NCBI RefSeq assembly: GCF_963506605.1
Contig: NC_083288.1
Location: forward strand, 36,704,001 to 36,768,000
Length of the DNA stretch: 64,000 nucleotides
Direction: 5' to 3'
Origin: Zootoca vivipara
Lineage: Eukaryota
The first letter of the stretch is position 1, and each line of letters starts with the position of its first letter. The translations under genes and the position numbers were made by a program. Under the pieces are notes generated by a model, which worked only from the letters and a program-made list of their open reading frames with translations, did no database searches and was not told the DNA's origin. This document shows positions 267 through 62,333 of this stretch, piece after piece.

Positions 267-652
267 CCAGGCAATTAATTCCTAAGAAAATAAATACTGC
301 GGTTTGCACCTGCTCACAAAATCACCTCCTTTGACACAGAAATCCTGCCAGAAATCCCAAATGTTTGAGACCTAGCTGTGGCTATTCAGGAACACTCTGC
401 CCATGCTCAGAGACACAAGTACTTACAGTATTATGCATATCCCATGGCTAAAGCCTAGTAATAAACTAATGATCTAGTTTGCTTAGTATGGCTGGCTGCT
501 TTTGTTCTTCTACGTATATAAACTCCTATGTTTGTAATAAAAACCTTTAAACCACTTTCACAGATGTCTTACTTATATATATTTTAAATAAATCTGTCAG
601 CAAATAAACTGGCCCTTTGATTGATGACAATGTTCCAGTTATTGCAATATGA

Positions 653-824
653 AGGGCCATAGCTTAGTGCAAGCCAAAGGTCCCTGGTTCGATCTGCAGC
701 ATCTCTAGGTAGAGTTGGGAGACACTCGCCTGAAACCCTGGAGAGCAGCTGCCAGTCAGTGTAGACAATACTGAGCAATATAGACCAATGGTCTCACTCA
801 ACATAAGGCAGTTTCCTATGTTCC
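653..824 (+). mobile_element. Squamate tRNA-derived SINE (Squam3-like)
   Basis: GGGCCATAGCTTAGTG head, GGTTCGATC B-box and body CTGAAACCCTGGAGAGCAGCTGCCAGTCAGTGTAGACAATACTGAG. Related copies at ~38945-39090(-), 42603-42940 and 52993-53170. Confidence 0.65.
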
Positions 825-1098
825 TATCCCAGTAGTCAAAATTGCGCATTTGTGTGCGTTTTAACTAGATAATTAATTCACTGAAAGTGAGGAGAGAACA
901 ACGAGAGGATAGTGATTTTTAAGTGCTGTGAAGTAGAATAATTTATAGAATTACCGCGGCTCGCTTTATGGAGAGAAAAGCAACAGGCGCCTGAAGTGGA
1001 GGATACCACTGAGCCTTTCAGTAGCACTTTAAAAACAAAATTTAAATAAATCAATAGGGCTGCGGTGAATAGTCTGTTGCCATGGTAATGGAACCAAT

Positions 1099-1531
1099 TG
1101 CCCTTTTCTGAAATGGCGCTTCGGGATAGCGCTTTGTGGGGGAAGGGAGTCCTCTGCCCTGTTCCAAGATGTCCTTTGATAAACTTGCCCACACTTAAAA
1201 TGGCCGTTTCGGGAAAAAATCAATAGGTGCATCGGTATGCAGTACACGGCCTCTTTAGAGACAGCGCGGCTGGCGACTGCCCTTTTCTAAGATGGTGGCG
1301 GTCCGGGACGAGTAGCGCCTCTCAAAATGGCGGCAGGCATTCTCTGCCCATACTCAAAATGGCGCTCACCTTTTACCGTGTTTTTAATGACGAATAAAGC
1401 CGCGCAAATAATAAAAACGGGCTACCGCCATTCCATCTTCCCACAACTCAGATTTCTAGCGCTGACTTTCAGAGAGAAACTCTCTAAGACTACATTCATT
1501 TAAAAGAGCAGTTTCCCTTAATAAAGATGGC
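1099..1531. promoter_or_regulatory. CpG-rich array of YY1-type sites (AANATGGC), most preceded by TGCCC at fixed 6-bp spacing; probable first intron/promoter of a minus-strand gene leaving the window
   Basis: Sites at 1099-1118, 1155-1173, 1186-1204, 1278-1296, 1324-1334, 1345-1363 and 1513-1531, all in one orientation. Minus-strand donor-like sites AG|GTGAGC at 1370 and AG|GTAAGA at 1599. Confidence 0.65.
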
Positions 1532-1850
1532 CGCACTCTTCTCTTTTAACAAATGTGACTGGGTGCTAACGCTTAATACGGCTTTTAAACTTTCTTACCT
1601 AAAATATCTTAATTTGAATTCAAAGTGCGGAAGGAAGGCTTTGACCCGCTGAGTTACTATGGGAAGGTTTTGTGAACCCCAACAGAGAGAGGGAGATTGA
1701 CTAACGTTTTCCAATATGGCCACCTGCTCCTTTTTCCTTTTAACTGAATTAGCGTGTCCCTTTTGAGAAACATAGACTAAAAATCCTAGAGAGATCATTC
1801 CAATAGTCAAACACGGGACAATGCTAGTTTTGACGTAATTCCCCCTAGGA

Positions 1851-1985
1851 CAGGCATCCCCAAACTTCGGCCCTCCAGATGTTTTGGACTACAATTCCCA
1901 TCTTCCCTGACCACTGGTCCTGTTAGCTAGGGATCATGGGAGTTGTAGGCCAAAAATCTGGAGGGCCGCAGTTTGGGGATGCCTG
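1851..1985. mobile_element. hAT (Charlie-type) MITE, ~135 bp
   Basis: TIRs CAGGCATCCCCAAACT.../...AGTTTGGGGATGCCTG with a perfect 8-bp TSD CCCTAGGA. Confidence 0.92.
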
Positions 1986-2445
1986 CCCTAGGATGTCGAG
2001 TGAAAGTGATAGCAGCCCATAGGACACAATGTAGAAATTCATGAATATGTAGTGTAGCTATGGTGCCCCAAAGTAGAATCTACCTGAAACGGGGTTTTAT
2101 ACTCTTAAATTCTTGTTTTGTGTGACGAATGTGCATGTCTGCTTGTATAAAGTGTTAAAACATTTGCAAATTGTGCCGCAAATGCAAATAAAATACTCAG
2201 CCTTCTTTTTTTTTTCCTAACGGGTAGGATGGGGCGCTGAAGCTGAATAAATTACAAGAAGTCTGAAATTAAAGTCCAAAGATTTTATATTAAAACATTA
2301 ACGCTACACCGCCTCCAGCCTTTGGCACAACAAGCAGCCTTGTTAAACGGTGTTAACAACTTTATTATTAATTTAATTTATTAATCGCTTCCTATGAAAC
2401 ATCCCAAAGCGATTGATGATTTTTTAAAAAAAGTATAGCTTCTCA

Positions 2446-2910
2446 GGGACAGAACAACCTAAACTGTATAGAAACTTATTCATGTATGCTACTACAGTGG
2501 CAAGAATGTTACTTGCCCCAAAACGGTGGCGTAAGTCCCAGCAAAGAAAGAATGGATACAAGATACAATGGAATATGCCGCAATGGTGAAGCTTACCAGA
2601 AGAATAAGAAATCAAGATAACACAATTTTCATAAAAGAATGGAAATGGTTCATTTAATATTTACAGATAAATTGTAAACAGATAAAAACATTGGCAGGAT
2701 TATTGTAATAACCTGCAGTTTCATAAGAGTATATATGTAAAGATGATGAATAAATGAGCAAATTAAGTTAATTCGGACATGCAGAAGATATTAAAAATAA
2801 ATTTAAGGAACCGTAGAAAGAGGGGGAAGGAAGTCATGTTTTGAAATGTCAAAATGATTGCAAAATTAGTGAAATCTATAAACTTGAAAAGTAATTTTTT
2901 AAAAAGGAAG
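2446..2910 (+). mobile_element. 5'-truncated L1-like LINE 3' fragment
   Basis: A-rich degenerate ORF2-end-like sequence bounded by a 13-bp direct repeat GTATAGCTTCTCA (2433-2445 / 2911-2923). Confidence 0.6.
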
Positions 2911-3241
2911 GTATAGCTTCTCACCCGACGAAGTAATTTTGAAAATTGAAAATCTCCCTTACAAGTTACACCTCAACGGTAGTTAAAGTTTAAATCAATT
3001 TAAAGTGGTCTCTGGAATGCCTTCGCAACTCAAAAGTCAGCGCTTTACATGCAGTGAAGTCATGCTAACGAGCTCTTCAAACAAAAATGTGGACACGATA
3101 AATCGAGGTGCTTGCGTTAGTCTCCCATTTCTGCGTCTATGTTGAGTATACATCGTCGAAGGAGGAAAACGTAAGCAGAAGGTTAGGGATGCCGAGCCCA
3201 TAGTGGGGCGTGGCTAGGGAGAGCAGCTGCCCGCTTTCAAG

Positions 3242-6200
3242 ATGGAGGAGCCCAGCACGTGGGATGAGCCGAGCAGCGGCTCGAGTAGCAGTAATGAGGA
3301 AGATGAGGGCATGGAAATGGAGGAGAAGGAGCAAGAAGAAGAGAAGGGTCGAAAGGGAGCTTACGTGCCAGGACAGGGGGCCCCTCCAGCACCTGGGGAA
3401 GAACTGGTGATGGACGAGGGTGCCTATCGCCTCTATCATCGCGCAGGCACAGGTCAGATCATGTATTGGAAGGAGGGTGGGGGGGTCTGTCTTTTTGGAT
3501 TGGAAAGGAAGGGGACGCTTTCAAAGGTGAACGGGAAAGGATTCCAAGATTGTAGACAGGGAGAAATGCAGGTGGGAATTTGTCAGGTTATACCGGTAGA
3601 TGCATTGGTTCTTAGATGTGGGCCACACAGGGGTTAGTTTGGTTGTACTGTATAGGCGAGCCTGACTCCTAAAGATCTCGGCCACAAATATTACGGGGAT
3701 GTGGCGTGGCCAGAGATCTTTAGGAGTCAGGGGCCAGAAGATATGGTGTGTGCAAGAGCTGTAGCTAAATAGTAAGATTCGAAATAGATTCCACTGCATG
3801 TTTTTGCACAAAGTTAGTACAGTAATTGTGAGTACAGAACTAGGATCTGAGGGCTGTGCCGGACCTCCTGTTGTTCTAGTTATATCAAAAAGGTGAAACA
3901 AATATTAAAAACACCCCAAAGCAATTTCAGCATAAACATTTCCTGCAGAGAGGCCTAAAACTAAATCTGCAATAAATTTACATACCACCATGTAGATGTT
4001 AAGATACAAACAATTATTTGTATACAGCGAGGAAGGTTATGACTGTAAATCAACGTGAAGAAAACTCACAGTAGATATGGGGCAAAGAGGGGAATTGCCA
4101 CAGAAATGAATGCTGATGTCCCTGTGTCTCCTTCGACCCCCTGCAGGTTCCCCTTGTTTGAGCTTTGACATTTTGCGAGATGCCCTTGGAGAAAATCGAA
4201 CCACCTACCCGCTGAGCCTTCTCCTTTGTGCTGGAACTCAGGCTGAAACTGCCAATGCCAACAGGTGAGTTCGCGAGGAGCTTGGCTTCCATCAAGCCAG
4301 CTACACTTGTCCTGCTGAAGCCAGGACAAGAGGGCCTATGGCAGGGATGTGGGACCCCTGGCTTTCCCTAGTTGTCAGGAATGCTGGGAACTGTAGTTAC
4401 CACCATCTGGACTGGAGGCCCAGAGTTTCGCCATCCTTGAAAACACCTCCTTATGTACCATTTAAATGTCTCTCATTTTCTCCCCCGTCCCCCTGCAAAT
4501 AGGCTGATGGTGATGAAGATGCACCACCTCTATGGGACCAAACGCGCTGGCAAGGATTCTTCAGAGTCAGAGAGTAGCAGCGACAGTGAAAGTGATGAAG
4601 ATGAAGAGAAAAAACCCCAGCTGGAACTGGCCATGGTCCCCCATTATGGGGGTATTAACAGAGTTCGGGTACGAACCATATTTCCTGCTGTTCTCTCACT
4701 CTGCTCCGGCAAAGTTCTCTACCTTAATGGTCCGTTGTTGTTTCGATAGGTGACAGAATTAGGTGGATCGCAGGTCGCAGCGGTTTGGTCTGAGAAGGGG
4801 CAAGTGGACATATACGATCTACAGCGCCCCCTTGTGGCCCTGTCCGACTCTCAAGCCATGGCAGCCTTTCTGCGAGAAGAGCAGGCCAAGATCAAACCTA
4901 TCTTCTCATTCGCTGGGCATATGACGGAAGGATTTGCTATGGACTGGTCTCCCAAGAAACCAGGTAATCAGCTGGGATGGAACGGGAATGGGCAGAGCTG
5001 GGAACGTAGGCACAGGAGACCTGGACCGGCAGGACTGCAGTTCATAATAAATTGTGCCTCTCCTATTCCAGGGACTCTTTTGACTGGTGATTGCAACAAG
5101 AACATCCATCTGTGGACACCCAAGGAAGATGGATCATGGCTTGTAGACCAGCGGCCTTTCACAGCCCACACTGCATCAGTGGAAGACCTGCAGTGGTCCC
5201 CAAATGAAGCTACGGTGAGGAAGTGGTTTGATGGGTGCAGCTTGCTTTACATTGAAAATTTCTGTGCTTGGGGAAATGTTAATGTGCTTCCTAATTACCT
5301 GGTATTTAATCAAAGTACTTCAAATCAGCTAAGGCTGCATTTTTTATTTTTTAAAAAGCCAGTTGCCTATTATTTCTCTTGCTTATGCTTGGCCACAAGG
5401 TTGGTTTAATGCAGGCTTCCTCAACCTCGGCCCTCAATATGTTTTTGGCCTACAACTCCCATGATCCCAAGCTAGCAGGACCAGTGGTCAGGGATGATGG
5501 GAATTGTAGTCTCAAAACACCTGGAGGGCCGAGGTTGAGGAAGCCTGGTTTAATGGAATCTTAAATCAGATTGGCCTTGATTTGCATTTTTAAAAAAGAT
5601 ATAGCCGAAGATCAGATCCTGGTGTCAGGTGAAGTTTTCCTTTGCAGGTGAGCTTGAGTTTAAGCTGGTGTTGTAAAGCAAAAATGTTCCTTTGCTCACA
5701 TGGTTTTCCTTTCCTCACATGCTTTGAAATCAAGCATTTTCCTTTATGCTGCCTTTGCAGTTTGAAACCAAATTGTCTGGGCAAAAGAAGCAAGGCTTGT
5801 TCTCAGCTGCAACTGCAAGCTCCACTTTCCATAGGGGTTAGCTCTACTTGAAGTTCCCAAGTGGAACCAATTCCAGTGTAGCTTGCATTTGCCCCTACAT
5901 TTCAGAGGAATTGAATGTAAGCCCCGCTTGTCAAAGAACAACTCTTGATCCCCTGCAGCTGTATTTTTACCTGCACCCAGCTTGATAAGACATTGGGTGG
6001 GGATTTATTTGGGGTTGGGACTGCCTTACAGGGGCCCTATTAAGACCCCTGCCAGGCCTAATGCTATGCTCTGACTCTGCAGTCAGAGGTAGTAAAGCTT
6101 CTGACTACCAGTTGCTGTAAACCACAGGAGGGGAAAGTGCTCTCCATGGGCATCTGATTGGCCACAGGGAGGACAGGAAGCTGGGCTTGATTGGCCTGAT

Positions 6201-52008: not shown

Positions 52009-62333
<10,325 letters not shown>

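What the first reader, a model, noticed from the sequence alone, without database searches (positions are those of the whole stretch)
1099..1531. Unidirectional array of fixed-spacing TGCCC-N6-AANATGGC composite sites (THAP1+YY1-like)
Seen: TGCCC-ttttct-GAAATGGC (1099), TGCCC-tgttcc-AAGATGTC (1155), TGCCC-acactt-AAAATGGC (1186), TGCCC-ttttct-AAGATGGT (1278), TGCCC-atactc-AAAATGGC (1345), TTCCC-ttaata-AAGATGGC (1513), plus a bare AAAATGGCGGC (1324). The spacer sequence varies but its length does not, and the DNA between sites is not a tandem repeat, which suggests selection on a two-protein footprint. Established: AANATGGC(G) is the YY1 motif, GGGCA is the THAP1 core, the two factors co-occupy promoters, and same-orientation YY1 arrays occur in first introns of some mammalian loci such as Peg3. 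Inference: this is a clustered THAP1/YY1 module in intron 1 of a minus-strand gene (donors at 1599 and 1370) diverging from GRWD1.
Basis: partly seen in the sequence, partly recalled or inferred. Interest (0 to 1): 0.7.

Follow-up and report, generated by a model that had tools for sequence, protein, structure and literature searches.

The report
Head-to-tail THAP1-YY1 site array at promoter
Six same-direction copies of a two-part DNA motif with a fixed 6-base gap lie between the two first exons of a spliced, likely non-coding RNA that runs away from a neighbouring gene (likely GRWD1); they likely dock the gene regulators THAP1 and YY1 as a pair, and the same motif, often clustered, recurs at many promoter-like places in this vertebrate genome.

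Summary
The array is real: six TGCCC-N6-AANATGG sites on one strand in 433 bp, none with another spacer; 0 of 5000 shuffles gave more than one. The 6-bp rule is genome-wide: 57 of 100 listed TGCCC-N3-9-AAGATGGCG hits have spacer 6, against 13 of 73 with the half-site flipped. These sites are CpG-rich and enriched for the THAP1-box A. Clustering is common: 14 of 43 such loci have extra same-strand copies, and one other has six. Contigs from three probable RNA runs show a minus-strand spliced transcript with two first exons flanking the array (donors 1599 and 955; 1370 not seen used). No Pfam domain or snoRNA was found for it. Best reading: a THAP1-YY1 docking platform that keeps a weak lncRNA promoter active (binding untested). 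Ngaro-like retrotransposon leaders here carry similar YY1 arrays, but descent from them is not shown. The scan noted YY1 arrays before in other genomes. Verdict: new member of a known kind.

The parts
1099..1117 (+). Composite site 1 (TGCCC-TTTTCT-GAAATGGC), preceded by a CCAAT-like word at 1091-1097
1155..1173 (+). Composite site 2 (spacer TGTTCC, weak ATGT core)
1186..1204 (+). Composite site 3 (spacer ACACTT); has the THAP1-box A at position 8
   Evidence: THABS TNNNGGCA from 10.1101/2024.06.11.598406 passages
1278..1296 (+). Composite site 4 (spacer TTTTCT, same as site 1)
1324..1334 (+). Bare YY1-type core AAAATGGCGGC without the TGCCC half
1345..1363 (+). Composite site 5 (spacer ATACTC); has the THAP1-box A
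1513..1531 (+). Composite site 6 (TTCCC half, spacer TTAATA)
1045..1380 (+). Likely decayed tandem duplication of about 170 bp (1045-1213 / 1214-1380), both units opening with AAATCAATAGG
1599..1683 (-). First exon 1a of the spliced minus-strand transcript (5' end at or beyond 1683; GT donor at 1598-1597), joined to exon 2 left of the window (starts at G000:C13:36703555)
   Evidence: contigs of runs X1 and X3; loose end mapped; splice signals
955..1025 (-). Alternative first exon 1b (GT donor at 954-953), joined to the same exon 2; the array is upstream of it
   Evidence: contig of run X2
1001..1600 (.). A+T-rich CpG-island-like stretch (GC 0.46, CpG o/e 0.87)
3215..3452 (+). First exon of the GRWD1-like gene; a seventh composite site at 3228-3246 holds the ATG at 3242 that opens its frame
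   Evidence: contig and joint 3449-4144; site; exon 2 matches Pfam CAF1C_H4-bd weakly (E 0.001, under cut-off); GluN2D gene about 50 kb to the left; the name GRWD1 and its human synteny are recalled

Best explanation
The region is a head-to-tail cluster of six two-part sites with a fixed 6-bp spacer, lying between two first exons of a spliced minus-strand RNA, and it likely works as a docking platform where THAP1 and YY1 bind side by side and keep this likely non-coding RNA's promoter weakly active. Shown: the sites, the 6-bp and orientation rule across the genome, the two spliced first exons, the CpG richness, a THAP1 gene in the genome. Inferred: THAP1 binds GGGCA and holds YY1 on the adjacent CCAT core at a fixed distance; HCF-1 is recruited; several copies add avidity and dosage, as at Peg3; the cluster grew partly by a local ~170-bp duplication, after which the DNA between sites drifted; bound factors keep the island unmethylated.
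For: Spacer 6 in 57 of 100 listed hits (43 after collapsing repeat families) vs 4-11 for each other spacer; 111 hits vs 7 for the reversed control. With the half-site flipped there is no peak: 13 of 73 (Fisher p 2e-7). The unsearched position 8 is A, as in THABS, in 22 of 43 sites (p 6e-4) vs 3 of 13 at other spacers. CpG o/e above 0.6 at 34 of 43 vs 5 of 13. Extra sites within 500 bp: 24 same strand vs 2 opposite; other spacers give 1-4. Spliced contigs in 3 of 4 runs laid. THAP1 exon in the genome, E 1.7e-34 to PDB 2jtg. Literature passages: THAP1 ChIP motifs match YY1, one with added specificity (PMC3950668); YY1 binding falls more than 90% without THAP1 at three promoters (10.1101/2021.08.03.454996); Peg3's six same-orientation intronic YY1 sites activate in an orientation- and dose-dependent way (PMC2615030).
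Against: No binding, methylation or reporter data. Only 2 of 6 sites match the full THABS, and two have a weakened half or core. Raw RNA reads of three runs (about 6% of each read) had zero depth over 883-1764 while GRWD1 exons had only 0-4, so the transcript is rare or tissue-limited; the contig runs are 'RNA?' guesses from one study. Cross-species evidence is weak: 0 changes in 50 motif-plus-spacer letters vs 33 in 619 others in one other organism's contigs (p about 0.06-0.16). Published work notes that most THAP1-bound promoters do not change on THAP1 loss (passages). YY1 sites usually act just downstream of a start on one strand (PMC11160661 passages); by recalled orientation (AAGATGG on the sense strand) that points towards GRWD1, not the lncRNA.
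Confidence: 0.62

Rival explanations
1. The array is the worn, co-opted 5' leader of an old Ngaro-like retrotransposon, whose first exon, donor and antisense YY1 array were kept as a lncRNA promoter. This concerns origin and can coexist with THAP1-YY1 binding.
For: Ngaro-like elements here have the same layout: predicted donor, then 3-12 same-strand YY1 cores antisense to their ORFs. The pair pattern CTCAAAATGGCG-N8-36-CTCAAAATGGC has 83 hits (0 control). 27 of 30 fetched matched Ngaro copies, and 9 of 9 further 10-kb loci, covering the unmatched families, encode RT, recombinase and gag-like frames. Window 1315-1364 aligns with a leader at 79% over 53 bp. Site 3 differs from one leader unit at 1 of 19 letters.
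Against: No gag, RT or recombinase remnant: none at E 1e-3 in the window plus 59 kb to its left; with 58 proteins, only scattered weak hits in 24 kb (best 9e-5 and 0.002, not collinear). With motifs masked, leaders align to the array no better than host promoters (22-36 vs mean 27.5, max 36). No terminal-repeat match. The CACGTG boxes seen in 7 of 9 further leaders are absent from the array. The patterns were drawn from the finding's own letters, so they are post hoc. An unrelated repeat family has a near-identical site too, which points to convergence.
Confidence: 0.15
2. The array mainly serves the plus-strand GRWD1-like gene as an upstream promoter or enhancer, and the lncRNA is a by-product of an open island.
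For: The sites read in the same direction as the composite site that holds this gene's ATG at 3242. The array is 1.7-2.1 kb upstream, and CpG o/e stays 0.49-0.87 from 501 to 3500.
Against: The only spliced contigs next to the array are minus-strand, and no joint links the array to the GRWD1-like exons. The gene has its own site.
Confidence: 0.15
3. The TGCCC half is read by another partner of YY1 (another THAP paralogue or a nuclear-receptor-type factor), or the whole 18-mer by a single zinc-finger protein.
For: The ENCODE authors called the extra part of the THAP1 motif an 'apparent HNF4 motif'. 11 THAP-domain exons were found in this genome. Only 22 of 43 sites have the THABS A.
Against: That motif came from THAP1 ChIP. 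The GGCA core and position-8 A match THAP1's measured preference.
Confidence: 0.12
4. The array is an imprinting-type or allele-specific methylation control element like the Peg3 DMR.
For: Same-orientation YY1 sites in a first intron at a divergent gene pair, as at Peg3/Usp29.
Against: Clusters of this kind are common here (14 of 43). Imprinting is not known in reptiles (recalled). CpG o/e is 0.87.
Confidence: 0.03
5. Chance cluster or neutral decayed repeat.
For: Part of the multiplicity likely comes from one local duplication.
Against: 0 of 5000 shuffles reach two sites; single copy; six sites at the genome-wide preferred spacer while the letters between them have diverged.
Confidence: 0.03

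Closest known systems
THAP1-YY1(-HCF1) co-bound promoter elements (SHLD1, Ech1, Cuedc2, Prepl, PSMB5; 10.1101/2020.07.19.210773, 10.1101/2021.08.03.454996, 10.1101/2024.06.11.598406, PMC3950668; passages read)
   Same: GGCA core next to a YY1 core at a CpG-rich promoter of a weakly expressed transcript. ENCODE THAP1 motifs match YY1, one with an added part.
   Different: The passages read give no fixed 6-bp spacer and no head-to-tail array of composites. That motif databases show a composite THAP1 logo is recalled, not checked (logos are figures; supplement file 1 of PMC3950668 could not be searched). No binding data here.
Peg3-DMR first-intron YY1 array, CSE2 (PMC2615030, passages read)
   Same: Several same-orientation YY1 sites with irregular spacing in a first intron at a divergent gene pair.
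   Different: Here six of seven sites carry a TGCCC half at 6 bp, the span is 0.43 kb rather than 2.5 kb, a second first exon lies on the far side, and nothing points to imprinting.
YY1 intron-1 autoregulatory cluster (PMC2743690, passages read)
   Same: Cluster of YY1 sites just behind a first exon, proposed as a dose sensor.
   Different: That cluster has mixed orientations and deep vertebrate conservation; this one is unidirectional, composite, and its conservation is untested.
Ngaro-like tyrosine-recombinase retrotransposons (structure from PMC9210276, passages read)
   Same: Their leaders in this genome show the same donor-then-antisense-YY1-array layout, and some end in one TGCCC-N6-AAGATGGCG site.
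   Different: The finding has no split direct repeats, no gag/RT/recombinase remnants and no CACGTG boxes; only 24 of 91 leader cores have a TGCCC-like half within 1 mismatch (often TGGCC).

Membership tests
THAP1-YY1 co-bound promoter element | THAP1 core GGCA / THABS TNNNGGCA | tested here: met
   GGCA core in 5 of 6 sites, full THABS in 2 of 6. Position-8 A enriched genome-wide, 22 of 43.
THAP1-YY1 co-bound promoter element | YY1 core (CCAT) adjacent | tested here: met
   ATGG core in 5 of 6 composites plus the bare site; site 2 has ATGT. YY1 consensus as in PMC2615030 and PMC2743690 passages.
THAP1-YY1 co-bound promoter element | Location at a promoter / CpG island near a start | tested here: met
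   Between two first exons; CpG o/e 0.87. Exact starts not mapped; contigs cannot show them.
THAP1-YY1 co-bound promoter element | THAP1 encoded in the genome | tested here: met
   L149 exon matches PDB 2jtg THAP1, E 1.7e-34. YY1 was not searched.
THAP1-YY1 co-bound promoter element | Binding by THAP1, YY1 and HCF-1, and expression that depends on them | not testable with these tools
   No chromatin or perturbation data.
Peg3-type clustered YY1 imprinting control region | Several same-orientation YY1 sites in a first intron | tested here: met
   Seven + strand cores inside intron 1 of isoform 1a.
Peg3-type clustered YY1 imprinting control region | Orientation and presence conserved across species | tested here: inconclusive
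   One other organism's contig covers three sites unchanged, p about 0.06-0.16; no relatives' genomes are held.
Peg3-type clustered YY1 imprinting control region | Allele-specific methylation and parent-of-origin expression | not testable with these tools
   No methylation or allele data.
Ngaro-like retrotransposon (or remnant) | gag, RT/RNase H, tyrosine recombinase frames | tested here: not met
   tblastn negative in the window plus 59 kb to its left; only scattered weak hits with 58 proteins in 24 kb.
Ngaro-like retrotransposon (or remnant) | Split direct repeats A1-B1-A2-B2 | tested here: not met
   No blastn match of 14 elements' repeats near the array.
snoRNA host lncRNA | Intronic snoRNA | tested here: not met
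   Rfam at gathering score found only tRNA-like hits in the window and 60 kb to the left; E-value mode on 14 kb gave nothing near cut-off.

The most novel reading that the evidence does not exclude
A head-to-tail THAP1-YY1/YY1 array behind a first splice donor is a portable 'stay-on' promoter module in this lineage. Three unrelated repeat families carry the 6-bp composite, young Ngaro retrotransposons carry whole arrays, and this locus is an old Ngaro leader tamed into a lncRNA promoter, so transposons recruit the dystonia factor THAP1 and seed host promoters with it.
Probability: 0.15. Interest if true: 0.68.

Novelty: new member of a known kind. Interest (0 to 1): 0.4.

Why it matters
THAP1 (DYT6 dystonia) is known to hold YY1 on promoters, but the papers read do not state the DNA geometry, and it is open why few of its thousands of bound promoters respond to its loss. 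A strict 6-bp, one-orientation rule visible from sequence alone in a non-mammalian genome, plus natural arrays of 1-6 copies, gives a simple test of spacing and copy number. The locus itself controls a weak, unnamed, probably non-coding RNA and is not unique, which caps its interest. The YY1 arrays in Ngaro leaders were not found in print and may be the more surprising by-product.

Tried and rejected
Naming the minus-strand gene: 267 minus-strand frames of 45 aa or more (under 30% repeat) across about 50 kb gave no Pfam hit over cut-off (2 weak hits at E 0.004-0.008); exons under 45 codons would be missed, and exon 2 may end in an ATG, so a small coding gene is not excluded. snoRNA or miRNA host: nothing at gathering score. 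No RNA holder was on record for the stretch, and three raw RNA runs gave zero depth over the array and both first exons; this is not evidence of silence. The donor at 1370 was seen in none of the contigs. Tandem Repeats Finder gave 0 rows. PDB search with GRWD1-like exon 1 gave 0 hits. Descent from the palindromic repeat or the TTACTT repeat family: no match beyond the motif. Start-codon use of the genome-wide sites: frames after the ATG were printed but not identified. In one search the 1155/1186 pair scored high only because their flanks overlap; I ignored it. Literature: no statement of a 6-bp THAP1-YY1 spacer in searches or in passages of PMC3950668, PMC5389469, PMC5933800, PMC5511047, PMC13631171, PMC9358416, PMC12698189 (the last two hold no whole-word THAP1). 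Two primary papers (PMC8985095, PMC5847273) were not held, and motif logos and bioRxiv supplements could not be seen, so the spacer may be in print. Earlier-findings look-ups by place and by sequence gave nothing.

Full report
Observation. The six composite sites and the bare core are in the sequence as described. Within 901-1700, sites with at most one mismatch occur only at spacer 6 and only on the + strand. Shuffles gave at most one site in 5000 trials, and shuffled 64-kb windows never put two in 450 bp. The stretch is single-copy in the 1.44-Gb genome G000 (with the caveat that very common words are skipped) and CpG-rich for its base content (o/e 0.87, GC 0.46).

The motif is a genome-wide rule. 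TGCCC-N3-9-AAGATGGCG has 111 matches against 7 for the reversed pattern. Of the 100 listed, spacers 3-9 number 7, 4, 10, 57, 11, 4, 7. With the half-site flipped the 73 matches number 18, 16, 9, 13, 2, 8, 7, with no peak. I fetched all 57 listed spacer-6 sites and collapsed repeat families to 43; the 13 other-spacer sites among the first 30 served as controls. Spacer-6 sites are more often CpG-rich (34 of 43 vs 5 of 13). At position 8, which was not in the search pattern, 22 of 43 have the A of the THAP1 box TNNNGGCA, against 3 of 13 (box from 10.1101/2024.06.11.598406, passages). A THAP1 exon is in the genome.

Arrays are a habit of this motif. 14 of the 43 loci have further spacer-6 sites on the same strand within 500 bp (24 same-strand vs 2 opposite); spacers 4, 5, 7 and 8 give only 1-4 extra sites. 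Copy numbers were 1 (29 loci), 2 (8), 3 (4), 4 (1) and 6 (1), so the finding is at the top of the range but not alone: L093, about 1 Mb away, has six. Spacers are more alike within clusters than between them (2.6 vs 2.0 of 6 letters), which fits growth by local duplication. In the finding, 1045-1213 and 1214-1380 align better than all 1000 shuffles with motifs fixed, and their shared 18-mer occurs nowhere else in the genome. Against unrelated promoter pairs this is only moderate (p about 0.008; 21 of 903), so the duplication is likely, not certain. The shared AAATCAATAGG could instead be a third binding word.

The transcript. Contigs of runs X1 and X3 cover 1683 or 1675 down to 1597, and a contig of X2 covers 1025 to 953. 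All three continue with the same letters, which map about 450 bp left of the window behind a pyrimidine tract and AG. The GT-AG signals fix the minus strand: exon 1a ends at 1599, exon 1b at 955. The array is thus in intron 1 of one isoform and about 75-500 bp upstream of the other. The donor-like word at 1370 was not seen used. These runs are guessed to be RNA and come from one study; three raw RNA runs showed no depth there. No Pfam domain (267 frames) or snoRNA was found, so a lncRNA is the likely reading; exons beyond exon 2 were not traced. The plus-strand neighbour is GRWD1-like (name recalled), with a GluN2D gene about 50 kb to the left. Its ATG at 3242 sits inside a seventh composite site.

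Conservation. A contig from a second organism covers 1233-1481 with 9 changed letters and a 3-base loss at 1307. None of the 7 listed changes falls in the three sites it covers; 2 lie near its ends and are not listed. Taking 0 of 50 against 33 of 619 elsewhere gives p of 0.06-0.16: a hint only.

Transposons share the motif. Three unrelated repeat families carry TGCCC-N6-AARATGGC with different spacers. One is a palindromic element (626 matches vs 3 control, about 89 of 100 listed with spacer AGTTCC or a one-letter variant by eye; four sites at window 54132-54295). A second has spacer TTACTT (445 matches vs 1; 24 of 30 fetched align with each other). The third is a set of Ngaro-like retrotransposons, with 222- and 400-bp split direct repeats and RT and recombinase frames (structure as in PMC9210276). 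Their leaders hold 3-12 same-strand YY1 cores behind a predicted donor. The finding's 1315-1364 resembles a leader unit pair, and it is one of 83 hits of a pair pattern whose tested hits are otherwise Ngaro. But there is no coding or terminal remnant, no CACGTG box, and no similarity once motifs are masked. I put descent from Ngaro at about 15% and convergence on a good binding site as more likely.

Mechanism. Most likely THAP1 binds each GGGCA half and stabilises YY1 on the CCAT core 6 bp away, with HCF-1, as at mammalian promoters where YY1 binding collapses without THAP1 (passages). Several aligned copies would add up as orientation-dependent activators, as the Peg3 intron sites do, keeping an A+T-rich island open and firing weak starts on both sides. 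The sites, spacing rule, exons and CpG content are shown; protein binding, activation and target gene are inferred.

Comparison and novelty. THAP1-YY1 co-occupancy and extended THAP1/YY1 motifs are known, and so are intronic YY1 clusters. I found no printed statement of the 6-bp rule or of composite arrays, nor of YY1 arrays in Ngaro or DIRS elements (one unrelated paper; none), but logos, two primary papers and some supplements were out of reach. All papers were seen as passages or listings only. The scan has noted YY1 arrays in other genomes. Verdict: a real, well-formed example of a known kind of promoter element; interest 0.4.

Noticed in passing
L105-L109, L154-L162 (e.g. L105:7768-7955): Young Ngaro-like retrotransposons (split direct repeats 99-100% identical in most, RT and recombinase frames) carry 3-12 same-strand YY1 cores, often with CACGTG boxes, in their 5' leader behind a predicted splice donor; some end in one TGCCC-N6-AAGATGGCG site. 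Not found in print.
   Followed up: partly
window 54132-54295: A palindromic dispersed repeat next to exons of a NOT2/3/5-domain gene (likely CNOT3) holds four composite-like sites in alternating orientation; hundreds of copies genome-wide, CpG o/e about 0.4-0.5.
   Followed up: partly
L163-L191, position 1501: A further repeat family with one perfect composite site (spacer TTACTT, with the THAP1-box A); it makes up most of 445 matches and is not classified.
   Followed up: partly
L110:4643-5060 (G000:C13, about 37.688 Mb): A second six-site same-strand composite array, between a sacsin-like DnaJ/HEPN frame and a C2H2 zinc-finger gene.
   Followed up: partly
window 3228-3246: The composite site holds the ATG that opens the GRWD1-like frame, 13 bases inside the 5' end of the longest contig.
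   Followed up: partly
window 1630-1642: A pyrimidine run (CCTTCCTTCC on the minus strand) inside exon 1a looks like a TCT/TOP-type start (recalled consensus), but contigs extend upstream of it.
   Followed up: no
window 1844-1992: A palindromic MITE-like repeat with thousands of reads from other copies sits between exon 1a and the GRWD1-like promoter.
   Followed up: no
L056 and L095, central site: At two other promoters a donor-like GGTRAG on the opposite strand overlaps the TGCCC half and spacer.
   Followed up: no
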